Assembly: GCA_000165345.1 (NCBI GenBank)
Contig: CM000429.1
Span: 160,001 to 224,000, forward strand
Direction of reading: 5' to 3'
Length of the DNA stretch: 64,000 nucleotides
Shown: piece by piece, positions 16,961 through 40,002 of the stretch
How positions within the stretch are numbered: position 1 is the first letter of the stretch
Layout of the letters: each line of letters opens with the position of its first letter
Position numbers and translations under genes: made by a program
The notes under the pieces: model-generated
Seen by the model: the letters and a program-made list of their open reading frames with translations, nothing else
The model's database searches: none
What the model was told of the DNA's origin: nothing

Positions 16961-17998
16961 TTACATTTCAAACTTTTCATTGGAAATTGAACTAGGATTT
17001 TCTATGGATGAGCTATAAAATTCAAAGTATTTATCAAAATCTCCAGACTCATTTATTTGTTCATTCTTCCGTGCTCTAATTGGAATCTTAGTTAATTCTA
17101 TTTTATATATTCTTGGCCACCTCTTACCAGTAACAAAAAGAACTGGGCCATTTAAGTTGGAAATCTTCTTTTCTTGATAGCTTGGATGATATGCAATTCC
17201 ATTAAGTACATCGTTAAGAATATCAAAGTGTTCTAATAACGTGCTTTTGCTTGGATCATAAATTGATTTCAGATTTGCAATTGATATACATTCACCTGTT
17301 TCAGGACTAAATTCAACAATCATTTGCGATTGGAATATATTTCCCCAAATAGTTTTTGTTTCTGGAATATATTCCATTTCATTTACAAAATGCATGGGCT
17401 TTCCAAGACATCTCAACATTATTACCTTTTTAATTGTGACTTTATTATCTGAAGAATCAAAATCTGGAACATTAAGCTCAAAAAGTTGATCAGAACCAGA
17501 TGTAGCCCATATTCTTGATTCATTATCTGATGTGAGACCCCATCCTGTTAATGGTATTGAATAACGTTTCACTACTGAAAGATCAAGAGAATATCCAAAC
17601 ATTACTCTACTTGTCCAAGTTAACTGGTATATATGGCCATTCAAAGTTGCAATTCCTTCACCCCAGTTCCTCTTTGGTAAAATCTTGTGTTGAAGATTCT
17701 TCATACTTGGGAATTCAATCAGTTTAATAAAACTTCCTTCAATTAATCCTGCACTTTCTATAAGAATTGTCGAATTTAGAAACATTAAACCTTGGGTGAA
17801 TGGATTTTTGTTATATTTATAAGATGAATCATTTTCAGAAAAAATATGATTTTCTGGTATATGGTAGTGGGGGAATTCTTGTAATATTTTCACGCTGTAA
17901 ATATTTGGCAACTGAACTGAATGTAATGAATCCTGGGATAAAGAAAAGTTCCATTTAATTATTAAGCATGAGAATAAGAATAGTCCCAACAAAAACAT
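16961..17998 (-). CDS. Glutaminyl-peptide cyclotransferase of the plant/bacterial beta-propeller type, with an N-terminal signal anchor.
   Basis: The ORF-track start at 18040 is a GTG; the first ATG is at 17998..17996, giving MFLLGLFLFSCLIIKW as a hydrophobic signal/TM segment. Blocks TQGLMFLNSTILIESAGLIEGS, GEGIATLNGHIYQLTW, TGWGLTSDNESRIWATSGSD and VNEMEYIPETKTIWGNIFQSQMIVEFSPETGE match the conserved glutamine-cyclotransferase (PF05096-type) motifs FTQGL..ESTGLYG, GEGIT...LYQLTW, GWGLT.DG..L..SDGS and NELE...G.IWANVW..D.I..IDP.TG. Confidence 0.75.
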   Translation of the reverse strand: MFLLGLFLFSCLIIKWNFSLSQDSLHSVQLPNIYSVKILQEFPHYHIPENHIFSENDSSYKYNKNPFTQGLMFLNSTILIESAGLIEGSFIKLIEFPSMKNLQHKILPKRNWGEGIATLNGHIYQLTWTSRVMFGYSLDLSVVKRYSIPLTGWGLTSDNESRIWATSGSDQLFELNVPDFDSSDNKVTIKKVIMLRCLGKPMHFVNEMEYIPETKTIWGNIFQSQMIVEFSPETGECISIANLKSIYDPSKSTLLEHFDILNDVLNGIAYHPSYQEKKISNLNGPVLFVTGKRWPRIYKIELTKIPIRARKNEQINESGDFDKYFEFYSSSIENPSSISNEKFEM

Positions 17999-18362
17999 AA
18001 TATTTTCAATATTAAAGCGTGTTATCTTTTCAATTTTCACCTCAAAAACTCTTCAAAAATTAAATTTTATAATAAAATGGAATATCATTAATTCGCATTA
18101 CGAGGTATTGCCGGGCAATCAAAATTTAAATATATATAACTGTAATTCTGTAATACATGTAAATACGTAAGCGATCAATTAAAAAAAAAAAAAAAAAGAA
18201 GTTAAAGAAAAAGTTAATTTAATAAGAATCTTAAAAAAGTTGATAAATATAATAATTTATAATACTGAAGTCAATTTGTCCAGTTTATTTCTCTTTATAA
18301 TTAATAAAAAAAAATGAGTTAATTTATTTGCCCATGAAGAATATTTAAATTTATTTAACAAC

Positions 18363-18968
18363 TTACTTTGCGAGAACTTGTATTGCAAAAGATATTGAAA
18401 TACAATGTTGGAGATATATTTGGTTTGTTGGATCAATATGATTCACTTTCAAAAAATGAGAGAATATGAGAGAATTATCATTTTCGTTTTCACTTTTGAT
18501 CATTGAATTAATTAATGCATTGATATCCAAAATATTAAGACATAATGTACATACATCCTAAGATCAAAAAAAGAATAACATTCGAGAGTATTAAATGTTA
18601 ATTTAACTCAATATAGCATTGAATTTTAAAACTTACCATTGGTTGCTTCAAAGTAATTTTCTTTGTTTCTGGATAATATTCAAAGTTTTCCCAATAAAAT
18701 AAAGAACTGCATTTGGAATCACATACATCACATTTCTTGAATTCAAACAATTAAAATAAATACCTCAAATTAAATTCTCATAAAAAAAACTTACCTTTTT
18801 CAATGAATCAGAACCAGCTTTTAAAGTACATTTTCCGTTCTTTGAAGTATCTATCTTTCCAATCTTTGGAACTGGTGCAAGCTTACAAGCATAAGCTACT
18901 AACCTTTCTTTTAGCATGGAAATTTGGGACTCAATACTTCCATTTGAATTCTCTAAAATATTTGACAT
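18363..18968 (-). CDS. Small Cys-containing hypothetical protein of about 155 aa, modelled as three exons: complement(join(18363..18557,18637..18735,18795..18968)).
   Basis: ORF 18795..18968 (ATG confirmed) ends at AAAAAG|GTAAGT. A 59-nt intron leads to a 99-nt stop-free exon reading KCDVCDSKCSSLFYWENFEYYPETKKITLKQPM, which ends at CAATG|GTAAGT. A 79-nt intron ending tttttttgatcttag| leads to a terminal exon reading DVCTLCLNILDINALINSMIKSENENDNSLIFSHFLKVNHIDPTNQIYLQHCISISFAIQVLAK. All junctions are phase 0. Function is unknown. The third exon is the least certain. Confidence 0.45.
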
Positions 18969-19126
18969 TGGCCTGTTATTTTAAAAGAAGCAGAATTTCA
19001 AAAACACAAACAAAGGACTTCAAATTCAAAGTTTGAGAGAAATTCTATTTTTAAAATATGTATATACTATTTTCTTTTATCTTATTTTTTCTGAATTGAC
19101 TATAAATCTAAATTTGGCTGAAAACA

Positions 19127-19140
19127 TTTTGGCGGGAAAA
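19127..19140 (+). promoter_or_regulatory. E2F-like box TTTTGGCGGGAAAA in the promoter region shared by the ASH2-like gene and the small Cys-protein gene.
   Basis: This is an exact match to the Cryptosporidium-type E2F consensus TTTGGCGGGAAA. It lies about 535 nt upstream of the ATG at 19675. Confidence 0.55.
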
Positions 19141-19674
19141 CTACTTACTCCAAAATAGTCAAGTGGGAAAAATTTCATGTAATCTAAAATAGTAAACAAT
19201 AACAAAAGTGTATTCTTTTTATGAATTGAAAGTTTAATATGAAGACTAATAATGAAGCATTTAAAGATTTTGATCTAGTTTAACTTATTAAATAAGTACT
19301 ATTGAATTATATTTATGTAAGACATTGCTAAACTCTCAAGAATCGTGAAATATTAATTAATGAGTATGCTCAAAGGAGAAAACTATAATTGGATATCATA
19401 TTGAAATACAGGTTTTTTTAAAAAAACTTAACTTTATTCAAGAAAGCTGAAATGATAGAATAACATTCCGTTTTTAGTCACTATATATAAACATAAGAGG
19501 AGAATGGCGGTAAAGTAAGGGAAGCAAATAGAATATAGTGTAAAGGGAAATGAACAAAAAAAAAGGCTGTGGCATGCAAATTGATCCAAAGAGCAAAAAT
19601 AATTGAGTCAACTAAATTAAAGAATTTATGTGTTCTAAAGGTGTTTTTACCATTCACGTCGGAACCTGATTAAA

Positions 19675-20682
19675 ATGACAGAAAATTCAGTCAAAATCGA
19701 GTCTCATTCAAAGAAAGAAACAATTTCTCATTTGAATGAATCGGCAAGTACAAGCAATCCCAGAAAGAAAAGCAGAAAAAACACAGGAAAGGACAACAAG
19801 GTTGATAATTTTGATTCTCCCGTATTCTCAGTTAGGTATAAGGATCCATCAATAGAGTTATCAGATGATAGATTAACAGCTGTGGGGTATAAAGGTTGGT
19901 CAACAGTTTTGTTAACACACGGTGCAAGTTCTGGAGTTTGGTATTTTGAAATTACAGTTTTAGAACCACGGGTTATTTCCAAGTTTTTAGGTCATTCTAA
20001 GTTTTTAAATTTGAAACAAGACCCCAGTATAAGGTAAATTTAATAAAATTATTAATTATATTTTCCTTCATTTTTAACTAACTTTACAATTAGGGTTGGA
20101 TGGAGTTGTAGATATAATAGATTGGATACTCCAGTTGGCACATCAACCTTTGGATATTCCTTCAATACAAAAACTTACTCCATTTTTTCCAATGCTAAAG
20201 CTCAAGAAATTCATGAATCGGAAAAAATTACTCAAATTAACCCTGGTGATGTGATTGGATGCTTAATCAAACTTAGTGGTGTACCTTATGAACTAGAGGA
20301 TCCCAGAAATTGTCCCCATTTGCATCCATATTTAGAGCTTGGACTTTTATGTAATCCAGAAGTACTCCCTAAAGTTATAAACGATCCTAGTAAGTTTTTC
20401 AATTACTTTGATTGCTATTCAACTTCTATTAAATTCCTTCAAATCTTTTTCATTTATTATTATTATTATTTTTAACATTATTCAGATTCCCTAATTGAGT
20501 TTTATATTAATGGGAAGAAGTTGAGTGCTAACTTTACAAATATTCCTTCAGGATTTTATCATCCTACTGTTTCATTATATATGGGATCCTCCGTAAAGAT
20601 CAACATAGGACCAAACTTTGCGTTCTTTCCTCACACTGAGTTGGAACCTGCTTTAAAGCTACTAAGACCTCAAATACCTTAG
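19675..20682 (+). CDS. ASH2-like SPRY-domain protein, a putative COMPASS/Set1-complex Ash2/Bre2 subunit of about 284 aa, modelled as three exons: join(19675..20033,20094..20389,20486..20682).
   Basis: ATG at 19675. Exon 1 ends at AG|GTAAAT; intron 1 is 60 nt and ends acaattag|. Exon 2 ends at CCTA|GTAAGT; intron 2 is 96 nt and ends ttattcag|. Both intron lengths are multiples of three, consistent with the two ORFs sharing a frame. The joined protein reads ...DDRLTAVGYKGWSTVLLTHGASSGVWYFEITVLEP...RVGWSCRYNRLDTPVGTSTFGYSF...PGDVIGCLIKL...EFYINGKKLSANFTNIPSGFYHPTVSLYMGSSVKINIGPNFAF. This parallels the ASH2L SPRY domain (DDRLTV.G.KGY...HGV..GAWYFEITVDE...[24 protein letters not shown]...GDVLGFYINLPE...[44 protein letters not shown]). 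Confidence 0.7.
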
Positions 20683-20727
20683 TCAACATTTCAGGATGTA
20701 ACTCTTATTTCTATACTTAGCCATCCT

Positions 20728-20820
20728 ACTTTTTACTCTTCTTATATCACTTTTTCCCTTTCATTTCCTCCCTCTCCCCTCTCTCTTTCTCTCATTCTTC
20801 ACTCTCATCTTTTTTTCCTA
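20728..20820. repeat. Polypyrimidine (CT-rich) tract, GAGA-like on the opposite strand, between the ASH2-like gene and the dynein gene.
   Basis: ctttttcccttt catttcctccctctcccctctctctttctctcattcttcactctcatc. Similar tracts occur at 39621-39660, 39795-39835, 48541-48600 (purine strand) and 63668-63780 (purine strand). Confidence 0.6.
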
Positions 20821-21233
20821 AGGTACTATCTTGATATTCCAGTTAATGTCAAAATAAAAATTTAGGGAAAGCCCGCCCAAACTTAATTACCAAGATTTTA
20901 ATTTCGCATGTTTTAAAAGTACAAGGTTGAATGTGGGGAGAAGAATTAAATACAGAGGGAAATTAGGAAAAAAAAGGAAAAGAACTTATATTTAAATAAA
21001 TATTTATTTATTTATTTAAATAGATCAAAAATTCAGAAAGTTAAAGTTTTATTCATAAGTTAAGAAATCCACAGGATAATATTATTAGAGGAAAAGAGAG
21101 TTTCAAAGAGAAATAAGAAGAGAAGCTCAAGTCTAAGGAAATAGGATTTTAATATAGATACTTGATTATAATATGGAAAAATTCTTAATACAGTAAGGTA
21201 GTGGAAGTTTTTGACAGAATCTGTGAAAAAAAA

Positions 21234-24200
21234 ATGAGTCAAAGAGCAAAGACTTCATTGATCAACTTTTTGTTGGAAGTGGTACCTTCAGCATTGGATT
21301 GTTCCAGACAACAATTAACGTCATTATTGACAGGAAAAGGTGATGAACAATTAAAAAGGTTTCTAAGAGAAACTGATGTTCACTGTTTAATTGTAGGTAA
21401 AGAAAAAGTTATGGAATCTAATGTAGGACGAGAAACCAATTCTGAAGGATTAAATTTAAATGATACTATTTCTGGAGAAAATAGATTGGATTATAATGAA
21501 GAAGTTGTACAACATCAAGTATTTATTGAAACATTTATGACTTCTAGATGTTTAAAAGCTTCATTAATGGTTTTTGTCAAAAATCCTGGGTTTCAAGTTT
21601 CAGAAGATGGAATTATTACAACAAGTGTTGATAGAGGAGCTGAAACATCTGAGTCTGCTGGAACTGATTCACCTGAAGATCATACAAAAACTACTGGAGT
21701 TGTATCCCATTCTAAATCTTTATCTTCTAGTTTACAGTGTATTCAATTAGGATTTGTTGGTTCACAACTTACTCCATACGAAGTTTTAAACCAGTACTTA
21801 CAATTTGCTTTTACTCCTTTATTAGATGCATTAGGTAATGCAAAAACTACTTCTGGAACAATTGGAGGTGAAATTGGAGATTCTGTAGATTCTACAGAAT
21901 CTGGATCTCATTTAGGTCTTGAGAACATTCAAAGAAAGGTTAATGAATTATGTTTGGCATTACAACAAGGTCAAGATGATAGTATGATCCCAATGGTCAA
22001 GTTAAATTTGGATCCAAAAGTTGCAGAATATGCTAAAGAATATAAAAATACTGGTAAGATTAATAATATGGATGAAATTATTGAAGATTCTACATTCTTA
22101 TCTTCACTTCAAGTTTCTATTACTCAATGGATTAGAGAAATTCAATCATTAGCAAGATTTCAAAGAGATATTGGATTAAGTGTTACATCTGAAGTCAAAT
22201 TTTGGTCATCTTATGAAAGAAGTCTTCAACAAATCTTAAAACAAGTTCAAAGTCCTGAAGTTGAATGGTCATTATCAGTATTACGCCAATCTAAGAAATT
22301 CTTAGCTGCAATTTCTTTAGAAGTTGATACTGGACTTAAACAATCCATTGAAAAAGTACAAAATATTAATACTTTAATACATGATATCCCAATTAATGAC
22401 TTACTTGTCGCAACTTCTATTGATGAAATTACTTCTGCTGTTACATTATTCTTCCAACAATTAAGAAAAATTAAAGGAGCAGCTTCTTATCCTATTTCAA
22501 GAACATTCCAACTTGTTGAAGTTTATTCTAATGATATGACTAAACAAATGTATAAAGTTCTTCAAAATAATCCAACCACATCTTTAATGCTACTCGAATT
22601 CCCTGTGTTTGAACATTTAGTTAATGGTTGTAATGAACTTGGACAAGTATGGGAAGATGAATGGAGAGAACTAAAGGATGTTATCAGAGATTTAATTAAA
22701 AAGAGAGGACTTTCAGAAAGAGCTCATCCAAAGATGGATTTTGCTCATGTTCCATTAATTCAACGTTTAAATGATATTGTCATATTTAGAAAACAACATC
22801 AAAAATTGAAAGATACTCTATTAGAACTTTTATCCATCCAAACTTCAGCATCTTCTAATGAACAAACTGATCAAAACCCTTTATCAGCTTTAGGTATTGA
22901 ACAAAACTCTGGAATTGATGCTTTACAATCTCTTGCAAAAAAAGATCTACAACAAGCTTATGCTTGTGTAGCTAATATTAACATACTTGATCTTTCAGCT
23001 ATTGGATTAGAAGCTTGGGAAGCTGGAAAACAAGCTTATAATAACAAAGTTGATGCTTCTGAGACATTATTGATTAAACAACTTAGAGAACAATTAAGTG
23101 GATGTGGTAATACTTTAGAAATGTTTAGAATACTTGGAAGATATAATCCTTTATTCTTTAGACCTAGAATCAGAAGTGCTGTGGAAGAATATCAAAGCAT
23201 TTTATTAGAAAAAGTTCAATCTGATTTTCAATTATTACAACTTAGATACCAAAATCCATACCAAAGAAGTGCAGCATCTCAATTTTCTTGTCTTAGAGAT
23301 ATTCCTAATATTGGAGGAATGTTAGTTTGGTCTCATCTACTTCAAGAAAGGATTCAAAGTATATATTTCAAGCTTGAAGATATTTTTGGTCCAAATTGGG
23401 AATTTGAAAGCCAAGGACATAAAGTTAAGACTGATGGTGATCATATTACTTCAAAAATACATCCAAATCAAATTGTTGATTTCTGGTTACAACAAAGAAA
23501 AGATGATAAATTGACTTATGATTTAAATAAACCAGTTTTAGGATTAATGAAAAGTGGTAATTTATCCACTACATCTTTTATATTGGCTTCAACTATTGAT
23601 TCTGGAATATTATCATTATTTAAAGATCTAAGAATTATTCAGTCTTATGCTTATAGAGTTCCATATAGTGTCAAAGTTTTGGCTGATGAACTTAAGTTAT
23701 TATATCCTTATATTTCTCATCTAAACTCACTTTGTATTAATTGGATGAGAATTGCAACTCAATTAGAAGTTGAACCAGGAAAAAGAATCTCTCCTTTATT
23801 AACTCCATTTCGTCAAGAAGTATATAATATAATACAAGAAGGAATTTCTTTAAGTTGGTCATCTGATAGACTTGAAGGATTTATAAGAAGATTTTATGAT
23901 TCTGTTGATACTTTAGAACAAAAATTTGAAGCTGTTATGACTTTAGATGAACAACTTTCAGTATTAGTTTCTCAAATTAGGAATATTCAAGTATCTAAGG
24001 GACTTGGAGAACTTGTTTCTCATTTAAGTAAAATTGGATCCAAATGTCAAGAATTTCAATCACTTTTATTGGCATATAGAATTGATTATTTATTTTATTG
24101 GGATCAAGTCATACAATCATTTCTACTTCCAAAACTTAAAGAATTTGTTCAATTATGGATTAACCAATTCATATCAATTGGAGGAGTTGATCATGAAGTA

Positions 24201-27200
24201 TTTTCCCAAGATCATCCAATTTTATCTCCAAATAATAGTAATAATAATAACAATAACAATAATGATAATCCAAATCATACAATTCTTGGCTCTTTATCCA
24301 GTACAATTATTACTTTACAACTTAAAAATCAAAAAATTACTTTAAATCCTTCACTTGAAGATGTTAAATCTTTATGGTTAAGACGATTCCATCAAGAAAT
24401 TACAAAAATTACAAATCTTCCAAGAGTTACCAATATCTCAAGTATTCCACAAACATCTCCTTTTTATAATGATATCTCCAAAGCTAAAGAAGAATTAGCA
24501 ACTTTAATTTCTGGAAAAAATGAACAAATTGATGAAAATCCTGTTAATTATGTAAATAGTGATGATATTGGATCAGTTAAACATATTCCACTTGATCATA
24601 CATACAGACATTTATTTCTATTTCTACCAAAATCTCTTTTAGAATGGAGTTATAAAAGTATTGATGATGTTTTTTCTTCTATTAAAGTTTCTATTGATTA
24701 TTGGACAAGATTTGAAGCTTTATGGTTTGTTGAATTAAGTAGTGTTACTGGAAAATTGAATAATCTATTACAATGGCAACAATTAGTGAAAGAAATGAGA
24801 AATTTAAGAACAACATTTAGTTCTAATGAAGATTTACGTTGGTTTTGTAGTAAAATTGCTTTGGATACATCTGCTATACAAGCAAAAATCATGAGTAAAT
24901 ATGATGGTTTAGCTAGAGAAATTCTTCATTTATATGCATCCAAATTAAATGAACAACTTTCATCTTATTGGACTTCAATTAGTACTATTAAACAAACATT
25001 GGATAAATTAGAACCATTCTTGGCTCAATGGTTGATTTGGATTGATAAGAATTCTTCAAGTATATCTACTTTAGTCTTAAAATCTGAAAATATTCCAACA
25101 AAAGGTTCTGTTATGACTAATTTACCTCCAGGAGGAGAAGCTTTACATTCTTCATTAATTGATTTAGTATCTAAAATGGTATCAGCACAAGATCAAGATC
25201 AGAAGATTGGATCTGATTTACCATTATTTTCTGATGGACAAAAATTTCTTGAAGTTCAAAGATTTACATTTCCTAATGATTGGATTTGGGTTGAACAATT
25301 TGAAGGTGAATATGATAAATCTCATCAAAGATTAGAACATTGTTTTGCTAATGTAATATTTCCAAGTAGAAGAAAAATTGAGAATTATCTTAAACTTTGT
25401 TTACAATTAATATTTATGTCTTATCAAGAACTATTATCAGAATGGACTCGATTAAGAGGAATAACATTTGTTAAGAATCCTTTCTTAATGTTAGATCAAA
25501 TTGGAGTAATTGAAAATAAAGTCAATGTTTTACGTCAAGATATTGAATCATTTAATATGATTTTTAAAGCTTTTAAATTTGATTCTTCTTGGATTGATAC
25601 TGAATTAAATAAAGTAACAAGTGAAACATTTGATACAATTCTACGTGATCTTAAAGACTTTAAAGAGATATGGAATCAATTAAATGTATTCTTTGTAATG
25701 ATTAGTGAATATAAAAGAATGTTATGGACAGAAGTTAATGTTAAAACACTTAAAACTAATTTAGAGAGTTTAATTTCGAATTTGAAATCAATACCAGTTA
25801 AATATAGACAATATGATGCATTTGAACAATTACAACATGATGTTGAAGGATATAATAAAAATATGGGTTATATTTCTAGGCTTAAAGCTGAGTATATGAA
25901 AGAAAGACATTGGAAATTATTATTGAGTAAAGTTATTTGGCATGAAAAGACGAGTAATTCAGGATTAGAATCATCATCTACTGAAGGAGGAGCAGGAATG
26001 GGAACTGGAGCAGAAGGAATTCAGTCCACAAATCAAGAAGAAAAATCCACAAGTAATATTGAAAATGATCAAAGCCAAAATATTCAAACTTTAACTAGTC
26101 TAACTAAAACAGGAATGAAAAATTTAAGATCTTCAAGATCGATGAAATTTTCATCCATGAGTAGTTCAAGTATTTTTTCTATGTCAATATTCTCAACTTT
26201 AACTTTAGGAGATGTTTGGTCAATTAATTTTGATGCATCTTCAGCTATTATGTCAGAAATATTAGCTAAAGCTCAAGGAGAACATGGATTAGAATCATAT
26301 ATTCAAGGTATGAAAGAACTTTGGAATGGATTTGAAATCGAATTTACTGGACTTCCTAATAATCCTAATACAAAAGTTATTAAGAATTGGGATATTATGT
26401 TAACAGCAATTGATGATCATTTAAGTGCTTTACAAAATATGTCACTTTCTCCATTCTATGAAATCTTTCAAGAAGAAAGTCAACTTTGGACAGAAAAATT
26501 AACAAAACTTAGATTTACTTTAGATCTTTGGATGGAAACACAAAGAAGATGGATATATTTACAAGGAATATTCTTAGCTAGTACTGATATTGCTAATCTA
26601 CTTCCTCAAGAATATAAAAGATTTCAAACTGTTGATGCTGAAGTACAAGGATTATTAAAGAAATCTCAATCAAGACCTAAAGTTATTGATCTTCTTACTT
26701 TTGAAGGTTTAACTAAATCATTAGAAAGAATTAGTGATTATTTGAATAAGATTCAAAAAGCACTTGGTGAGTATTTAGAGAAACAAAGAAGTATGTTCCC
26801 AAGATTTTACTTTATTGGTGATGAAGATTTATTAGAAATGATTGGTAATGGTAAAGATATTACTGTTGCTCAGAGACATTTTAATAAGATTTTTGCAGGA
26901 ATCACATTCTTAAAATTTCAAGATCTTATGGATGAAAATATTGATCAAAATATACAGGGAAAGAAAAATAATGGAAATAGAAATAATCAAAAAGATGAAC
27001 AAATTGAAAGTATGATTATTGGTATGGGATCTAAAGAAGGTGAAGTCATTCATTTTAAAGATCCTATTCCAATATTAAAAGATACCTCTTTAGTAGAATG
27101 GCTTGGTAAAGTTGTACAAGCTATGCAAATTACTTTAAATGATTTAATAGGAAAAGCAATAGAAGATATTATTTCAAATTTTGGAATGTCTTCATTTACT

Positions 27201-30200
27201 GAAGATGATCATATTCTTTCAGAAAAATTAAGATCTAATTTTGAAAAATATCCAACACAAGTACTTTTAGTAGCTTGGATGTCTTGGTGGACAAAATTAA
27301 CAGAAGAATCATTTTCATCAGGAACAAGTACAAAACAATTACAAGAATTTATACAAAGAATACTTTCTAGATTGAGTGATATTGTTGCAACTTTGGAAGA
27401 AAATACATGTCATAAAATTAAATATAATCAATTAATTGTAGAATTTGTACATGAAAGAGATGTTTTAAGTCATTTAATTGAACAAAATGTAACATCTAGT
27501 CAAAGTTTTCATTGGCTTCAATATATGAGAATGTATTGGATGAGTAAAGATTGTCAAAAAAATCTGAAAGATCTTGAAATGATTGGTGAATTTGATAATG
27601 ATATTATTGTAAGAACAGCAAATTCTGCTTTTATTTATGGTTATGAATATCTTGGTATTCCAGAAAAATTGGTTCAAACTCCTTTAACTGATAGAACTTA
27701 TTTAACTTTAACTCAAGCTTTACATATGAGACTTGGTGGAAATCCATTTGGTCCAGCTGGTACTGGTAAGACAGAAACTGTTAAAGCTTTAGGAAATCAA
27801 TTAGGAAGATTTGTTTTAGTTTTTAATTGTGATGAACAATTTGATTTTACTGCAATGGGAAGAATTTTTGTTGGTTTATGTCAAGTTGGAGCTTGGGGTT
27901 GTTTTGATGAATTTAATAGATTACAAGCAAGAATATTATCAGCAGTATCAGAACAGATTTTAACAATTCAAACAGCATTAATAAAGAATAGTAATACTGT
28001 AGAACTTTTAAATAAGACAATTCCAATGAGTCAAGATGTTGGTATATTTGTTACAATGAATCCAGGTTATGCTGGAAGATCAGAATTACCTGATAACTTA
28101 AAACATTTACTTAGAGAAATTGCTATGGTAGTACCAGATAGACAAAGAATTGCTGAAGTAACTCTTTTTGCTCAAGGTTTTCAATTTGGTGAAATGATTT
28201 CACGTCAAATTGTGACATTATTTGAACTTTGTCAATCTCAAATGACAAGTCAACCACATTATGATTTTGGTTTACGTTCAATGAAATCAGTACTACGTTC
28301 AGCTGGTAAGCTTAAAAAATCTGCAATATCTGAGAATAAAGAAGCATTGGATGATCCACAAAAACTGGTAATATTAGAGCAACAACTAATTATTAGATCA
28401 ATATCATCAACATTATTACCAAAATTAGTTTCAACTGATGTTCCTTTATTAACAACATTATTTCAAGGAGTTTTTCCTCAAGTTCCATTTGAATCTTTGA
28501 ATGATTCATTAATGGTAGAACAAGTCAAATTGATTTGTAAGAGAAATTCTTTAGAAGCAACATCTCAATGGTTGGATAAAACATTACAACTTTTTGAGAT
28601 TCAAAAATTAAATCATGGTATAATGTTAGTTGGATCAACAGGTACTGGTAAGACAACAGTAAGAAAGACTTTATTAGAAGCAATGGATACAGTTCAAGGA
28701 TCTAAAACAATAAGTTATGTAATAGATCCAAAAACTATTGATAAAGAAAGTTTATTTGGGAAATTGAATCCAGTAACGTTAGAATGGACTGATGGTGTAT
28801 TTACAGCTATATTAAGAAAAATCATTAATTCCTCTGATAATAATAATAATAATAATAATAATGATCAAACAGGATCAGGAGGAGTTGGTGGGATTAATAA
28901 GAAATATTGGATAATATTTGATGGTGATGTAGATCCTGAATGGGCAGAGAATTTGAATTCTGTATTGGATGATAATAAACTTTTAACTCTTCCAAATGGT
29001 GAAAGATTAGAACTTCCTCCTTGGGTTAGAGTAGTATTTGAAGTACATTCTTTAGCAACTGCTACATTAGCAACAGTTTCTAGATGTGGTATGATTTGGT
29101 TCAATGATGAGATTATTTCTGATGAAATGTATTTTACTTCATTTTTATTTAATAAGATCAAGATGGGAAATAATACAATTAATAATGTGAATACTGGTCC
29201 AAACTCTTCTAATACTGGAGGAGGAGGAGGGGGATCTTCAAAAATTTCAGAATCTGCTACTTCTGATCAACTTGGTGAAGGAAGTGATAATATAGGTAAT
29301 AATACAACTGGTATGGAAGAATTTGAATCAGCTGAAGGAACAGGAATTGAACAAAATTTAGAAACCTTATTAAGAAATAAAGCATATTCAATATGGCAAT
29401 CAATATTATTCAAAGATTCATTTGGTTCAAAATGTCTCTCATTTGCATCAAAAAGACCTCATACAATGGTTTTTACAAGAATTCGAGTCTTAGAAGCTGC
29501 ATTTTCATTACTCAATAGTTCTATTAAACTATTATTAGACTCTAATTCTACTATGGGAAATGGTAAATTACCACCAATGGATTCTTTAACAGAATTCTTC
29601 TCTCGTTGGCTTATTTGGTCTTTAATTTGGGGATTCTCCTCAAGTATGAACCTCTCTGATCGAATATCTTATACTAAAGAAGTTATCTCTATTGTTACAT
29701 TTACTGATCTTCCACCAATGGAAGATGAAAATATTTCTATTCTTGATTTCAAAGTTGTTATTCCAACAGGAGAATGGAGAAAATGGAGTTTAGAATGTAA
29801 AGAAACTGAAGATCTTCCTCTTAATAAAGTTCTTGATTCAAATGTTATTATTGAAACTGTCGATACCCTTCGTCATTTTCAAGTATTACATGCTTGGTTA
29901 CATGCTCATCTTCCTGCAATATTATGTGGACCTCCTGGTAGTGGAAAAACTATGACATTATCATCAGTATTAAGAAGTATGACAGATGTTGATATTGTTT
30001 CATTAAACTTTTCATCAGCTACAACTCCTGAAATATTATTAAAAACATTGGAACATTATTGTGAATTTATTAAAGCTCCAAGAGGATGGATATGTCGTCC
30101 AATGGTACCAAATAAATGGTTAGTAGTATTCTGTGATGAATGTAATTTACCAGAACCTGATAGATATGGTACTCAAAGAGTTATTATGTTTATAAGACAA

Positions 30201-33200
30201 TTAATTGAATGTAAAGGATTCTGGAGAAGAGAATCATCACAATGGAGTTTTGTAACTTTAGAACGTGTACAATTCATTGGAGCTTGTAATCCTCCTACTG
30301 ATACTGGAAGACATCCTTTATCTGATCGATTCTTACGTCATTCTCCAATATTATTTGTTGATTTCCCAGGAAAAAGTTCTCTAAATCAAATATATTCAGT
30401 ATTTAATAGAGCAATTTTAAAACCATTCCCAACACTTTCTAATCATGCTGATGCATTAACTAAAGCTATGGTTGATATATATGATGCTTCAGCTAAAACT
30501 TTAACTGTTGATCTTCAACCACATTATATTTATTCTCCAAGAGAATTAACTAGATGGAAAATTTCTATTTATTCTGGACTTCATAGTTCTAAAGGATCAG
30601 GCTCAAAATCTGGATCAGGACCCTCATCACAATCTATATCTACAAATCAAGAAGCATTAAAAAGAGTCCTGGATAAATTTGGAGCAGATTCTAATCTTCA
30701 ACTTGAAGAAGAAAATGAACTTACTTTAACTCAACTTATTAGACTTGTACTCTATGAAGGTGAAAGAATATTCCAAGATAGACTTGTTGAACAAAGTGAG
30801 AAAAATTGGTCACAAGAAATGATGAATGAAATGATTATTAAACATTTCCCAAATCTATCCATTGAAAAAGATCTATATAGACCTCTATTATTTACTAATA
30901 TTGTCACTTCTATATGCAAAGAAATTCCAAGATCTATTGTTTCTGAATATTTACAAGATAGATTAACTTCTTATTATGAAGAACAAGGAACTTCAAAACT
31001 TGTTTTCTTTGATGAATTCCTTGATAATATTAATAGAGTTGATCGAGTATTAAGACAACCTTTTGGACATTTATTATTAATTGGACCTCCAGGATGTGGA
31101 AAAACACTTCTTGCTGATATGGTTTCTTGGTTAAATGGATTAAATGTATTTACTATTAAACCTGGAAGAAAATATGATATTTTTGCATTTGAAGCTGATT
31201 TAAGATCTGTTATGAAAAGAGCTGCAATTAAAGGAGAAAAATTAACTTTCATTTTTGAAGAATCACATGCTTTAGGTCCAGCTTTTATTGAAAGAATGAA
31301 TGCATTATTAGCTTCAGGAGAAGTACCAGGATTATTTGAAGGAGATGAATATAATCAACTTTTAAATGAATGTAGAACAGCATTTAGCAATAGCTCATCA
31401 GTTTCAATTTCTGATGATGGAAATGAGTTATTTGCTAGATTTACTAAACTTGTACAAGAAAATCTTCATATTGTTTTTACATTAAATCCTGCTAATCCAA
31501 ATTTCAAAGAAACACAATCTTTATCACCAGCTTTATTTAATCGTTGTGTTGTTAATTGGATGGGTCAATTAAATAATCAAGCTTTAAGTCAAATTGCAAG
31601 ATCATTCTTACATTTAGATTCACAATTAACAAAAAATGATCAAGATCAAGTACTCATACAATCTGAAGAAACTACTGAATCATCAAATCATAATCATTCT
31701 TCAATCATTTCAGCAATTGAAAGAATACCTACAAATTGTATGCCTTCAGTTGAACAACCTGAAGAAAGAGTTGCATTAACAATTGATTGTATTATTTCAT
31801 TATTTCATGCTGAAGTTGGAGAAGATGGAGGTATTAAAAAAACTTCAACATGTAATACAAATTCACAAGAACATTCAATGATGAGAAGAACTCCAAGAGA
31901 TTTCTTTGATTTCTTAAAACATATTATTAAAATATATAAAGAAAAGAATGAAACATTATTAGAACAACAACAACATTTATCTTCAGGATTAGAAACTTTA
32001 AGAAGTACAGAACAAGAAGTTGCTACTCTTCAACAAGAACTTGGTGAAAAAGAAAAGATATTAATAGCTAAAAATGTTGAAGCAGAACAAAAAATGCAAC
32101 AAATGATTAAAGAACAAGGAGAAGCTGAAGAAAAGAAGAAAACTACAGAAACTTTAGCAAAATCATTAGATGAACAACAAAAAGTAATAGCTGAAAGATC
32201 AAGTGAAGTAGAAATACAATTAAAAGATGTTGAACCAATACTTAGAGAAGCAGAAAATGCTGTTTCAAATATTCCAAAGAAGAATTTGGATGAATTAAGA
32301 TCAATGGCAAATCCTCCTGGTCTTGTTAAGAAGACGATTGATGCTGTTGCAATATTACTTACAAATAATTCAACAAAACCTCAAGCGTGGGAAGAGAGTA
32401 GAAAATTACTCAAGAGTTCAGATTTTATTACAAAAGTATTAAATTTTGATTCAAATACAATAACTTTAAAAACTATGCAAAGATTACAAAAAGAATATTT
32501 AGAATCACCAGAATGGGATACAGAAAAAATTAATAGAGCAAGTCATGCAGCTGGTCCTTTATCTTCATGGGTATCGAGTATATTACAATATTCATTAATA
32601 AGTGAAAAAGTACAACCATTAAAAACAGAGATTAGTCAATTAGAAAAATCAAAATTAGAGAATGAAAAGGGATTAGAAGCAGCTCAAAAATTGGTTGGTG
32701 AATTACAAGAACGTATAGATGTTTATAAGAAAGAATATGCAGAATTAATATCTCAAGTACAATTAATAAAAAGAGAAAAAGATCTTGTAACAAATAAAGT
32801 AGAAAGAAGTATAAGATTATTAGGTAATTTAACAACAGAACAAGATAGATGGAGAGAAGCTAAGGAAGGATTTAAGACAGAATTTTCAAATATTATGGGA
32901 GATTGTCTTTTATCAGCAGCATTTATATGTTTTGCAGGAGGTTTAGATCAGATTTTAAGATCACATTATATAAAATTATGGCAAGAGATTTTGGATGAAT
33001 TTCAATTATCACATACAAATGCTAATACTTTTAAGATTGTTGATTATTTATCAAAACCAAATGAAAGATTATTATGGCAAAGTTATGGTTTATCAAATGA
33101 TGATTTAAGTGTAGAAAATGCAATAATAATAAAGAGACATATTCGATACCCATTTATAATAGATCCATCAGGATATGCAACAAGTTTTCTATTAGAGATG

Positions 33201-36200
33201 AATAAGCATAGTAATAGTAATGCAAATCAAGGGAAAGGAGGAGGTAAACTTCAGACAAGTACTTTTTCTGATTCAAATTTTCCAAAATTATTAGAATCAT
33301 CATTAAGATTTGGTTCATCATTATTAATTCAAGATGTAGGATCATCATTAGATCCTTTAATATATAATGTATTAAATCAAGAAATTCATTTACATGGAGG
33401 AAGATCATTAATAACAGTAGGAGATAGTGAGGTTGATTTTTCTCCTCATTTTAGAGTTTATTTAACAACTCAAGATCCAACAATCCAATATGGTCCAGAT
33501 CTAACAAGTAGGGTAACGATGGTAAATTTTACTGTAACACCAACATCACTTTTAGAACAGAGTAGAAATATTATTTTGAAAGAATTACGTCCAGATATTG
33601 ATAAGAAAAGAACAGATTTACTTAGATTACATGGTGAATATCGTGTACAATTAAGAGAATGTGAAGATAATTTGTTATTAGCTTTATCAAATGTGAAGGG
33701 TAATATTTTAGAAGATGAGACAATTATTAATACATTAGAAGTACTTAAAAAGAAAGCTCAAGATATACAAATAGAGACAGCAAAAATGGAGAATACTATG
33801 GAACATATAGATCAAGTACTTACTCATTTACTTCCATTATCATTAACAGCAACAAGAATTTACTTTACTTTACAACATTTATCATCAATTAGTCCAATAT
33901 ATCAATATGATCTTGAATTTTTTAATAGAATACTATATGGAGTATTAGAAAGAAATAAATCAAAGATTAATTCAAATTCAAGTGATAATGGAGGAGATCA
34001 TGAAGGAGATAATGGAGAAGAAAGTAGTAATAATAATATAGAATTTGATCACAAGATACAAAAGATTATAATCTTAGATCTATTGCATGAAGCATATTTA
34101 AGAGTTGCTCAAGGTTTATTACATAATGATAGAATAGTATTTGGATTACATTTGATGAGAATTTATATTGAATCATATTGTAATCTTTCTTTAGATAATT
34201 TAATGGGAAAAGAAATTGATCTTTTAACAAAATCAGCATCAGCAATCAATATATCAAGTTCAAGATCTTCTTCTTCAAATAACAATATATTGGATTCTAT
34301 ACCAAAATCTTTTGGATTAGATCGAGAACAAATGAATCAACTTTCTGTAATGATTTCATCAATTAAATCGTTTTCTAAACTTTGTGAATCATTTAATTCA
34401 AATAAAAATGAATGGGAGCAATTAATGATTTCAACAGAACCTGAAGTAATATTAGATACCTTAGGTACCGGTATATGGGATGATCAGGAATTATTAGATT
34501 CAATATTCAATAATGATGATAATAATAATAATCAGATGAATTCTGAAGAATTTAATGAGAAGAGAGAAATATTAAAGAACTTTAAAAAAGGTGTATTAAA
34601 ATGTTTATTATTAAAGATTATTCGTCCTGATCGTATTGTTACTTTATTTAACAAGTTAATATCAGATACATTAGGATCTGAATTTTCTAATATCAGTGAA
34701 TTTTCTAAGGATTTACTTAAAGAGATTGTTTTGAAGCAAATAACTGAAATAACACCAATATTATTTGTAACTTCACCAGGTTTTGATGCTTCTTTGGTGG
34801 TTTCTCAATTAGCAAATGAACAGAATTCGAATTTACTTTCTATTGCAATAGGATCAGCAGAAAGTTTAGAAAAAGCTGAATCATCAATTAAGACAGCAAT
34901 GAGAAAAGGTACATGGGTTATGTTAAAAAATGTTCATTTATCTTCAGGTAATTTGGATTATTTGGAACAATTACTTCAAAATCGTCAAAATAGACCAAAT
35001 AAAGGATTTAGATTATTTTTAGCAACAGAATTACCAAAAAAGATTTTGAATCCAAGTCATAAAGATTCAGTTATTGGTGCATCATTTAATACATCAGATT
35101 CTTCATCAGGTTCATTATCACCACTTGGTATATCATTTAATTTAATTCGTATTTCAATGACAATAGTACTTGAATCTCCTGTTGGACTTAAAGCAGCATT
35201 ACAAAGAGCAAGTGAGATTACTATTAAGACTGTGGATGATTCTCAATCTTCTTCAACAATAAGAATAAAATTATACTTTTTATTAGCATTTTTACATTCA
35301 GTAATATTAGAAAGAAAAAGATATACACCATTAGGATGGACAAAGTTTTATGATTTTAGTGAAGCAGATCTTCAATGTTGTATTAATATAGTAAATCAAT
35401 GGACAATAACAAATATATCAGGAGATCCTGAACAGATTCCATGGGAAGCAGTACGTAAATTAGTATCACAAGTAGCATATGGAGGAAGATTGGATAATAT
35501 TGTAGATAAACAGATTTTATATATATTAATAGATGAGATTTTATCATCAAAATCATTTGAAGATGGATCAGAATTAATAAGTTGTACAAGTGAATGGAAT
35601 AAATTATATAGAAATGATCAAATAAAGCCAAATATTTTATTAGCTCCAGATACATCTAAAAAAGTTCAGAATTATTTGGATTGGGTAGAAAAATTATCAA
35701 GTACAAATTGGCCAACTTGGCTTGGGTTATCTCCTTTAGCAGAGAATGTGATTTCAGCACAAAAAGGACAAAAGATGAGTTTAAATTGGAGTGTATTAAT
35801 AATTAGATCAAGAAATGAAACACCAGATTTGATCCCAAAAGATAAAGGTAATATGATTACAAATATAGAAGAAAATGAAGAATTAATGGGAGATGGAGGA
35901 TTATCAGGAGGAGGAAATAATAAGATAGAACAAGAAGAGGCATTAAAATCAGATACAACAGGAATACCAAGTTGGTTATTAAAGATTAGTGGAAAATTAA
36001 CAAAAATGGAGAATAGCTTAAGAATATTTTCAGAATATATAATAAAGAATTCAAGAAATATTATAGAATATTCAGAGAATAATAGTTTGGATCCAATATT
36101 AAGATATTATGTTTCAGAGATTTCGAAATTCTATAGAGGATTTAAAAATATTTGGGAAAACATTCATGAATTATTAAATATTCTTGGAGGTGAATCAAAA

Positions 36201-39552: not shown

Positions 39553-40002
39553 ATTAACTTTTTCCCCCAAAAATCCAGAATACTTATTATACTAATTATC
39601 AACTTATCTGTGTTTTCTATTCCCAAAATCTCCTCCCCCCTATTCTCTTCCCTTATTTTCATCAAGCTCTCTTCTGAAAGCGATTTAAAAGAATCCTTTT
39701 TTCAAAAATAAAAATACCAAAAATAAACCCAAAAACTATATCAGATATTTTGTATTCGTTAAGTCTTATCAAGCCTTAATTATTTAATTGTTCGTTTCCC
39801 CCTCCCCTCCTTTTCCTTGGGCTTTTCCCTTGGAAGAAGAAAAAAATCTTTTAGCCAAAATAATACCTCGGAAACAATCTTCTTATTGCCACTAGATCTA
39901 TTATCTTTATCTATAATTTTGTGAAATTTCTCTCTTTTCCTTCCCTTAACCTATTATTTTCCACTTTTTTATCCAAAAAATTATCAAATCCTATTTTTCT
40001 AT

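What the first reader, a model, noticed from the sequence alone, without database searches (positions are those of the whole stretch)
19675..20682. ASH2-like SPRY protein (COMPASS subunit) split by two in-phase short introns
The two separate ORFs (19675..20037 and 20122..20475) plus an unreported third segment share a frame. They are linked by a 60-nt intron (GTAAAT...AG) and a 96-nt intron (GTAAGT...AG). The joined protein reproduces the ASH2L SPRY signature (GxWYFEITV.E ... R.GWS ... GDV.G ... FY.NG ... FGP.F) in the correct order. This is a minimal Ash2, with no PHD or winged-helix domain. It suggests a reduced Set1/COMPASS H3K4 methyltransferase module.
Basis: partly seen in the sequence, partly recalled or inferred. 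Interest (0 to 1): 0.55.

Follow-up and report, generated by a model that had tools for sequence, protein, structure and literature searches.

The report
Annotated Cryptosporidium Ash2-like SPRY gene

Summary
Exons 19675-20033, 20094-20389 and 20486-20682 are joined across a 60-nt and a 96-nt GT-AG intron. The 283-aa product is 100% identical over its full length to GenBank proteins of Cryptosporidium parvum (CPCDC_1g740/CPHLJ_1g740, i.e. cgd1_740). The same spliced model exists for Iowa II (XP_001388146.1), and the C. hominis copy is already named 'Set1/Ash2 histone methyltransferase complex subunit ASH2'.

C. ubiquitum and C. muris have both introns at the same positions and phases, with lengths that are not multiples of three. 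Splicing is therefore required there, and the shared frame in C. parvum is a coincidence.

The protein is closer to ASH2L than to any other SPRY family. A profile scores 2.4e-52 against ASH2L, 5.5e-14 against Bre2 and 1e-9 or weaker against the rest. The predicted structure superposes on the ASH2L SPRY domain at 2.1 Å.

It is a stripped-down form. It has no PHD/winged-helix domain, and it ends before the DPY30-binding SDI helix. The RbBP5-contacting Arg367 is replaced. Apicomplexan relatives share these traits.

A 2022 paper already names cgd1_740 as the ASH2-like partner candidate for CpSET1. COMPASS membership itself is inferred, not shown. Novelty: already known. Interest: low.

The parts
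19675..20033 (+). Exon 1 (359 nt; Met1 to the first two bases of the Arg120 codon). It encodes the disordered basic N-terminus and the first SPRY strands, including GVWYFEITVLE.
   Evidence: ORF; splice model; 35% GC against 13-19% in the introns.
19675..19797 (+). N-terminal residues 1-41: low-complexity, K/S-rich segment (PRKKSRKNTGKD) predicted to be disordered. It is not a PHD or winged-helix domain.
   Evidence: pLDDT below 50 for residues 1-41; no Pfam family other than SPRY at E<=1.
20034..20093 (+). Intron 1: 60 nt, phase 2, GTAAAT...TTTTTAACTAACTTTACAATTAG, with four in-frame stops if retained.
   Evidence: The same position and phase occur in C. ubiquitum (119 nt) and C. muris (103 nt).
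20094..20389 (+). Exon 2 (296 nt; last base of the Arg120 codon to the first base of the Asn219 codon). It encodes RVGWS, GDVIG and the loop inserted into the SPRY domain.
   Evidence: Differences from C. ubiquitum fall on codon positions 1/2/3 as 13/14/37.
20275..20389 (+). Insertion loop that splits the SPRY domain (about residues 181-219, SGVPYELEDPRNCPHLHPYLELGLLCNPEVLPKVINDP). It sits at the position of the ASH2L Loop (residues 400-440) and is strongly conserved among the apicomplexan orthologues.
   Evidence: Alignments; ASH2L domain map from PMC8134635.
20390..20485 (+). Intron 2: 96 nt, phase 1, GTAAGT...TTTTTAACATTATTCAG, with one in-frame stop if retained.
   Evidence: The same position and phase occur in C. 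ubiquitum (146 nt) and C. muris (67 nt).
20486..20682 (+). Exon 3 (197 nt; the rest of the Asn219 codon to Pro283, plus TAG at 20680-20682). It encodes FYING, the last SPRY strands (INIGPNF) and the short tail ...LKLLRPQIP.
   Evidence: Differences from C. ubiquitum fall on codon positions 1/2/3 as 9/7/26.
19825..20634 (+). Genomic span, introns included, of the ASH2-type split SPRY domain (about residues 51-268).
   Evidence: phmmer match of query 51-268 to ASH2L 289-493. The AF2 core has pLDDT mostly 80-97, with dips to 59 and 74 at the apicomplexan insert and the Loop. Foldseek gives TM 0.9 and rmsd 2.1 Å to the ASH2L SPRY domain.

Best explanation
The locus is Cryptosporidium parvum gene cgd1_740 on chromosome 1. 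It is a three-exon gene whose two short spliceosomal introns must be removed to give a 283-aa protein. That protein consists of a disordered basic N-terminus followed by an ASH2-type split SPRY domain.

It is the apicomplexan orthologue of ASH2L/Bre2/TRAUCO. By inference it acts as the Ash2 subunit of the parasite's Set1-type H3K4 methyltransferase. In this model its concave SPRY surface binds an acidic segment of an RbBP5/Swd1-like partner, and the pair clamps and activates the SET domain of CpSET1 (cgd8_2730).

Compared with the animal protein it is pared down. It has no PHD/winged-helix DNA-binding module, no linker, and no C-terminal SDI helix for DPY30/Sdc1. Any DPY30 input would therefore have to use another route or be absent.

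Shown here: the gene structure, identity to the annotated protein, the fold, and the closest family. Inferred: complex membership and the activating role.
For: Gene model:
- A single GT-AG exon chain reproduces the database protein.
- The product is 100% identical over full length to KAL5370312.1/WKS75972.1. XP_001388146.1 (Iowa II) is the same model minus its last residue.
- Both introns keep their position and phase in C. ubiquitum (119/146 nt) and C. muris (103/67 nt). Those lengths shift the frame, so splicing is obligatory there.
- Exons are 77-79% identical to C. ubiquitum and introns 41-53%. Substitutions are in excess at third codon positions in the predicted frame.
- Intron GC of 13-19% and lengths of 60/96 nt match the published C. 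parvum means of 22% and 99 nt.
- A TTTTAAC branch-site-like motif lies 8-14 nt before the AG in four of the six introns examined.
- Published dN/dS against C. hominis is 0.068.

Family:
- Pfam SPRY scores 34.7 bits, above the 26.3 cut-off.
- In a single-sequence PDB search, all 8 hits at E<=0.01 are ASH2L, with E from 2.6e-21 to 1.6e-20.
- A profile search gives ASH2L 2.4e-52, Bre2 5.5e-14, ryanodine receptor 1e-9 and DDX1 1e-8.
- The AF2 model has pTM 0.77. Its top 17 Foldseek hits are all ASH2L SPRY (E 2e-18, TM 0.9, rmsd 2.1 Å), ahead of DDX1 at 4e-13.
- The nearest non-apicomplexan relatives are plant proteins named TRAUCO or 'Set1/Ash2 ... subunit ASH2'.
- Of the RbBP5-pocket residues, Arg343 and Pro356 are invariant, Tyr313 is replaced by Trp in every apicomplexan sequence, and Lys369 is kept in C. 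parvum but varies among the orthologues.

Context: a SET1-family enzyme (cgd8_2730) and H3K4me3 are reported in C. parvum, and cgd1_740 is named there as ASH2-like.
Against: - There is no direct evidence that the protein binds CpSET1 or an RbBP5/Swd1 orthologue. No such orthologue was looked for here, because no Cryptosporidium proteome could be searched.
- Arg367 of ASH2L, whose mutation cuts RbBP5 binding 13-fold, is Asn/Ser/Ala/Cys in all the apicomplexan sequences. Tyr359 is Thr/Ser in the Cryptosporidium sequences and P0011, and is kept only in Babesia.
- The SDI helix is missing, even though a DPY-30-like gene (cgd3_3620) is reported in the genome.
- No transcript data were examined here. 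Splicing rests on comparative evidence and on existing annotations.
Confidence: 0.8

Rival explanations
1. It is a stand-alone SPRY adaptor protein. It descends from or resembles Ash2 but works outside any Set1 complex, for example as a generic protein-interaction module in the way DDX1, RanBPM or SPSB SPRY domains do.
For: It lacks three of the accessory elements that tie ASH2L to chromatin and DPY30: PHD-WH, the linker and the SDI. Two RbBP5-contact residues are not conserved, namely Arg367 and Tyr359. No partner interaction has been tested.
Against: Similarity to ASH2L exceeds that to any other SPRY family by about 40 orders of magnitude in E-value. The split-SPRY loop sits at the ASH2L position. 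Arg343 and Pro356 of the RbBP5 pocket are invariant. Yeast Bre2 (from my own knowledge) and plant TRAUCO also lack PHD-WH and are still COMPASS subunits. The genome has a SET1-family enzyme and H3K4me3.
Confidence: 0.12
2. The segments are not spliced. The locus would then hold separate short ORFs or a decaying pseudogene, and the 120-aa and 117-aa ORFs are what is made, if anything is.
For: Old or automatic annotations call only the pieces. C. hominis TU502 XP_665484.1 is exon 1 alone (120 aa), and Logan ORF calls of 120 and 117 aa exist.
Against: The ASH2L alignment runs straight across both junctions. Intron positions and phases are conserved across species while intron length and sequence are not. 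In C. ubiquitum and C. muris the exons lie in different frames, so only splicing yields the conserved protein. Published dN/dS is 0.068. Neither fragment alone would form a SPRY fold.
Confidence: 0.02

Closest known systems
Human ASH2L (Set1/Ash2 histone methyltransferase complex subunit ASH2; PDB 3TOJ, 4X8N, 5F6K, 6KIU)
   Same: Both have a split SPRY domain with an insertion loop at the same place. The motifs WYFE, R-x-GWS, GDV-x-G, F-x-x-NG and GP-x-F are shared. Arg343 and Pro356 of the RbBP5 pocket are invariant. Identity is 28-29% over about 230 residues. The predicted fold superposes at 2.1 Å.
   Different: The Cryptosporidium protein has 283 aa against 534/628. It has no PHD/winged-helix (ASH2L 1-178) and no linker IDR. 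It ends at about ASH2L residue 500-505, before the SDI helix (504-534). It carries an apicomplexan-specific insert of about 15 residues after EITVLE. Arg367 becomes Asn and Tyr359 becomes Thr.
Plant TRAUCO/ASH2R (the plant ASH2 orthologue)
   Same: These are the closest non-apicomplexan relatives by sequence (32-35% identity, E about 1e-75 to the profile). SPRY is likewise their only Pfam domain, behind a disordered N-terminus.
   Different: The plant proteins are 400-550 aa, keep Tyr313, Tyr359 and Arg367, lack the 15-residue insert, and extend about 25 residues beyond the SPRY domain.
Yeast Bre2 (COMPASS; PDB 6CHG, 6VEN, 6BX3)
   Same: It is an SPRY-based Ash2 family member without PHD-WH (from my own knowledge). 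It is the second-best family in the profile search at 5.5e-14 and scores 9e-12 in the fold search.
   Different: Bre2 is more divergent and larger (405-505 aa). It carries the C-terminal SDI that binds Sdc1 (South et al. 2010, cited in PMC8134635). That element is absent here.

Membership tests
ASH2/Bre2/TRAUCO (COMPASS Ash2 subunit) | SPRY domain more similar to ASH2L than to any other SPRY family | tested here: met
   All 8 PDB hits at E<=0.01 are ASH2L. The profile gives ASH2L 2.4e-52, Bre2 5.5e-14 and others 1e-9 or weaker. The Foldseek top 17 are all ASH2L.
ASH2/Bre2/TRAUCO (COMPASS Ash2 subunit) | Split SPRY: a loop inserted between the GDV-x-G strand and the F-x-x-NG strand (ASH2L Loop 400-440) | tested here: met
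   A loop of about 39 residues (181-219) lies at the same position. The ASH2L domain map is from PMC8134635.
ASH2/Bre2/TRAUCO (COMPASS Ash2 subunit) | RbBP5 D/E-box pocket residues (ASH2L Tyr313, Arg343, Pro356, Tyr359, Arg367, Lys369) | tested here: inconclusive
   The mapping is W75, R120, P133, T136, N144, K146. Arg343 and Pro356 are invariant and Tyr313 is conservatively replaced. Tyr359 is lost in all the apicomplexan sequences except Babesia. Arg367 is lost in all of them.
ASH2/Bre2/TRAUCO (COMPASS Ash2 subunit) | C-terminal SDI helix that binds the DPY30/Sdc1 dimer (ASH2L 504-534) | tested here: not met
   The protein and all nine apicomplexan homologues in alignment A1 stop 3-4 residues after the RP motif, which corresponds to ASH2L 498-499. 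Most close relatives in the exhaustive search also end at the SPRY boundary. No + strand ORF of 40 aa or more lies between the stop codon and the dynein gene.
ASH2/Bre2/TRAUCO (COMPASS Ash2 subunit) | N-terminal PHD/C4 zinc finger plus winged helix (animal and S. pombe type; not universal in the family) | tested here: not met
   Pfam finds only SPRY at E<=1. Residues 1-41 are predicted to be disordered. Nine of ten longer relatives show SPRY as their only Pfam domain, and one shows no domain at all.
ASH2/Bre2/TRAUCO (COMPASS Ash2 subunit) | Physical association with a SET1/MLL enzyme, RbBP5/Swd1 and WDR5/Swd3, and stimulation of H3K4 methylation | not testable with these tools
   Only context is available. 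CpSET1 (cgd8_2730), a DPY-30-like gene (cgd3_3620) and H3K4me3 are reported in C. parvum (PMC9487757).
Pfam SPRY (PF00622) | Score above the gathering threshold | tested here: met
   34.7 bits against a cut-off of 26.3, E = 2.2e-8.
Spliceosomal GT-AG introns of Cryptosporidium | GT...AG boundaries, a GTAAGT-like donor, AT-rich sequence, length near 100 nt, and position conserved in orthologues | tested here: met
   Genome-wide values (mean 99 nt, 22% GC) are from PMC4637869.
Spliceosomal GT-AG introns of Cryptosporidium | Junction-spanning transcript reads | not testable with these tools
   No RNA-seq or cDNA data were accessible. The current GenBank models use these junctions.

The most novel reading that the evidence does not exclude
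Apicomplexan Ash2 has lost both the DPY30-binding SDI helix and the key RbBP5-contacting arginine (ASH2L Arg367). It has also gained a conserved 15-residue insert and a highly conserved, probably structured loop. The parasite's Set1 complex may therefore assemble through a rewired Ash2 interface and work without DPY30. That would make the interface parasite-specific.
Probability: 0.3. Interest if true: 0.3.

Novelty: already known. Interest (0 to 1): 0.1.

Why it matters
It matters little beyond annotation hygiene. The gene, its splice model and its ASH2 label are already public.

The analysis is useful as a check. It shows that the two-intron model is right. It also shows that some deposited models are wrong: C. 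hominis TU502 XP_665484.1 is exon 1 only, and both C. canis entries are mis-spliced.

The one point of modest biological interest is that the apicomplexan Ash2 is a bare SPRY domain without the DPY30-docking helix. That could guide biochemical work on how the parasite's H3K4 methyltransferase is assembled.

Tried and rejected
- Literature searches for biochemistry of an apicomplexan COMPASS complex, or for Cryptosporidium RbBP5/WDR5 orthologues, found only PMC9487757.
- The profile search of the 5.8-billion-protein collection was swamped by plant TRAUCO sequences, because one plant sequence was in the query alignment. It added no new apicomplexan names.
- The exhaustive representative search gave relatives but no names or taxonomy. 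I used it only for lengths and match ends.
- The AFDB Foldseek library was unavailable.
- An Rfam scan of 18200-21300 found no RNA family at E<=1, so there is no detectable intron-hosted snoRNA.
- I considered a missed upstream PHD exon and rejected it. No suitable + strand ORF lies in the roughly 700-nt divergent intergenic region, and the orthologues of nine other Cryptosporidium species and Babesia are all about 280 aa.
- I considered a missed downstream SDI exon and rejected it. All orthologues stop at the same conserved RPxI/V tail.
- The antisense 84-aa ORF at 19728..19982 is a shadow of exon 1 and was not pursued.
- I considered a functional meaning for the 'in-phase' intron lengths, such as read-through isoforms, and rejected it. 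Both introns carry in-frame stops, and the orthologous introns are not multiples of three.

Full report
**Source of the window.** The window is AT-rich at about 26-36% GC. It carries long intronless ORFs, including a 5257-aa dynein heavy chain directly downstream of the finding. The spliced product of the finding is 100% identical over its full length to Cryptosporidium parvum proteins KAL5370312.1 (CPHLJ_1g740) and WKS75972.1 (CPCDC_1g740). The window is therefore C. parvum chromosome 1, and the gene is cgd1_740.

**Observation.**
The third piece shows up as ORF 20521..20682.
- Reading the sequence and joining 19675-20033, 20094-20389 and 20486-20682 gives an 852-nt CDS for 283 aa plus TAG.
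- Intron 1 (20034-20093) is 60 nt, GTAAAT...TTAG, 13% GC. Intron 2 (20390-20485) is 96 nt, GTAAGT...TCAG, 19% GC. The exons are 35-36% GC.
- Each intron contains in-frame stops, so it cannot be read through.
- In the technical sense the introns differ in phase: phase 2 (splitting Arg120) and phase 1 (splitting Asn219).
- An exhaustive search over GT..AG pairs found exactly one exon chain that reproduces the database protein.
- Four of the five quoted motifs occur literally. The fifth is IGPNF rather than FGP.F.

**Is it really spliced?** I had no transcript data, so I used comparison.
- The orthologous genes of C. ubiquitum (L001) and C. muris (L002) lie in the same gene order: glutamine cyclotransferase, a small minus-strand gene, the SPRY gene, then the dynein heavy chain.
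- Both orthologues have introns at exactly the same two codon positions and phases. Their lengths are 119/146 nt and 103/67 nt.
- None of those four lengths is a multiple of three. In those species the exons sit in different frames, and only splicing yields the conserved protein. The shared frame in C. parvum is thus an accident, expected about one time in nine.
- Against C. ubiquitum the exons are 77-79% identical and the introns 41-53%.
- Within exons 2 and 3 the differences fall on codon positions 1/2/3 as 13/14/37 and 9/7/26 in the predicted frame.
- A TTTTAAC branch-site-like motif lies 8-14 nt upstream of the acceptor in four of the six introns.
- Length and composition match the published genome-wide picture: mean intron length 99 nt, 22% GC, introns in about 10.8% of genes, and 2.6 exons per intron-containing gene (PMC4637869).
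- That paper's supplement gives dN/dS of 0.068 for cgd1_740 against its C. hominis orthologue.

**What the protein is.**
- Pfam finds SPRY (34.7 bits, cut-off 26.3) and nothing else at E<=1.
- Against all PDB chains the single sequence hits only ASH2L, with E from 2.6e-21 to 1.6e-20. The full-length-chain alignment (query 51-268 to ASH2L 289-493) runs straight across both splice junctions.
- A profile of ten homologues (nine apicomplexan and one plant, alignment A1) scores ASH2L at 2.4e-52 and 181 bits. Yeast and K. lactis Bre2 score 5.5e-14 to 1e-11. The best unrelated SPRY proteins are ryanodine receptors at 1e-9 and DDX1 at 1e-8.
- An AlphaFold2 model built on that alignment is confident in the SPRY core (pTM 0.77) and disordered over residues 1-41.
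- The top 17 Foldseek matches in the PDB are all ASH2L SPRY structures (E about 2e-18, target TM about 0.9, rmsd 2.1 Å to 7W67). DDX1 follows at 4e-13 and Bre2 at 9e-12.
- The closest non-apicomplexan sequences are plant proteins named TRAUCO or 'Set1/Ash2 histone methyltransferase complex subunit ASH2'.

**How it compares with ASH2L in detail.** The published domain map of ASH2L is PHD/WH 1-178, Linker 178-275, split SPRY, Loop 400-440 and SDI 504-534 (PMC8134635).
- The Cryptosporidium protein corresponds to ASH2L residues about 286-505 only.
- It keeps the loop that splits the SPRY domain. Here that loop is about 39 residues and is unusually well conserved among the apicomplexan sequences (DPRN-PHLHPYLELGLLCNPE).
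- It has an extra insert of about 15 residues after EITVLE that is shared with Babesia.
- It lacks PHD-WH and the linker.
- It also stops before the SDI helix. I confirmed the human C-terminal sequence and the position of the DPY30-bound peptide (4RIQ, VVEHTLADVLYHVETEVDG) against the PDB. In the alignment, all nine apicomplexan homologues end three to four residues after the RP motif that corresponds to ASH2L Arg498-Pro499.
- Most of the 20 closest representatives in the exhaustive search also end at the SPRY boundary.
- Nine of ten longer relatives have SPRY as their only Pfam domain, and one has none at all.
- The residues shown crystallographically and by mutagenesis to hold the RbBP5 D/E box are Tyr313, Arg343, Pro356, Tyr359, Arg367 and Lys369 (PMC4298132).
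  - Arg343 and Pro356 are invariant.
  - Tyr313 is Trp.
  - Lys369 is kept in C. parvum but varies among the orthologues.
  - Tyr359 is Thr or Ser everywhere except Babesia.
  - Arg367 is Asn/Ser/Ala/Cys in every apicomplexan sequence.

**Mechanism.** By homology, the protein most likely serves as the Ash2 subunit of a Set1-type H3K4 methyltransferase. In this model the concave SPRY surface binds an acidic stretch of an RbBP5/Swd1-like WD40 protein, and the heterodimer activates the SET domain.
- A SET1-family enzyme (CpSET1, cgd8_2730, with bromo and PHD domains) and H3K4me3 are reported in C. parvum. The same paper names cgd1_740 as the ASH2-like component and cgd3_3620 as DPY-30-like (PMC9487757).
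- Complex membership is inferred and not shown. The missing SDI and the Arg367 substitution leave open whether DPY30 is used at all, and whether the RbBP5 contact is rewired.

**Novelty.** There is none at the level of the finding.
- The three-exon model has been in GenBank for C. parvum Iowa II (XP_001388146.1/EAZ51323.1, identical apart from a missing last residue) and for several newer assemblies.
- The C. hominis copy carries the ASH2 name.
- The literature already makes the link.
- What the analysis adds is comparative proof of the splice model, the explicit statement that the SDI helix and Arg367 are missing across the apicomplexan orthologues, and identification of faulty public models (the exon-1-only entry of C. 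hominis TU502 and the two mis-spliced C. canis entries).

**Verdict.** The gene is already known, and interest is low.

Noticed in passing
window 18363-18968 (minus strand): The upstream neighbour is another small three-exon gene. Its exons are 18968-18795, 18735-18637 and 18557-18363, and its GTAAGT...AG introns are 59 and 79 nt. The 155-aa product has two CxxC pairs (KCDVCDSKC ... DVCTLC) and no Pfam hit. Small genes are called at the syntenic position in C. ubiquitum (L001 1731-2329, minus strand) and C. muris (L002 1909-2536, minus strand).
   Followed up: partly
window 20700-20810: A pyrimidine-rich (CT) tract of about 100 nt (…ctttttccctttcatttcctccctctcccctctctctttctctcattcttcactctcatc…) lies between the stop codon of the SPRY gene and the start of the dynein heavy-chain gene. 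It could be a 3' UTR or a promoter element.
   Followed up: no
window 21201-36974 (+): A single uninterrupted 5257-aa ORF encodes a dynein heavy chain, judged by the Pfam DHC_N1/N2 and AAA domains on the orthologues in L001 and L002. It contains several poly-Asn, poly-Ser and poly-Gly runs. The listed GTG start is probably upstream of the true ATG.
   Followed up: no
GenBank models P0005, P0006 (C. canis) and P0020 (C. hominis TU502 XP_665484.1): Some public orthologue models are wrong. Both C. canis entries (246 aa) read through intron 2 into nonsense sequence, and one also drops VGWSC at intron 1. The TU502 entry is exon 1 only (120 aa). C. hominis PPS97205.1 (284 aa) has an extra Arg at junction 1.
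   Followed up: partly
P0010 (Logan assembly, unnamed Cryptosporidium-like contig of 1671 nt): In this relative, intron 2 is open in frame for 43 codons without a stop, so an ORF caller read through it. This shows that the shared frame recurs by chance and can mislead gene callers.
   Followed up: no
L003 3585-3604 (Babesia bigemina orthologue): The annotated Babesia gene has seven introns, most of them 35-39 nt and one only 20 nt long. The 20-nt intron is implausibly short and probably an annotation artefact. It surrounds a 6-residue insert (QVRHTL) that is unique to that sequence.
   Followed up: no
window 16961-18040 (minus strand) and 37213-39570 (minus strand): Flanking genes were identified by Pfam as a glutamine cyclotransferase (6e-45) and a dual-specificity phosphatase with a long C-terminal extension (8e-28).
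   Followed up: partly
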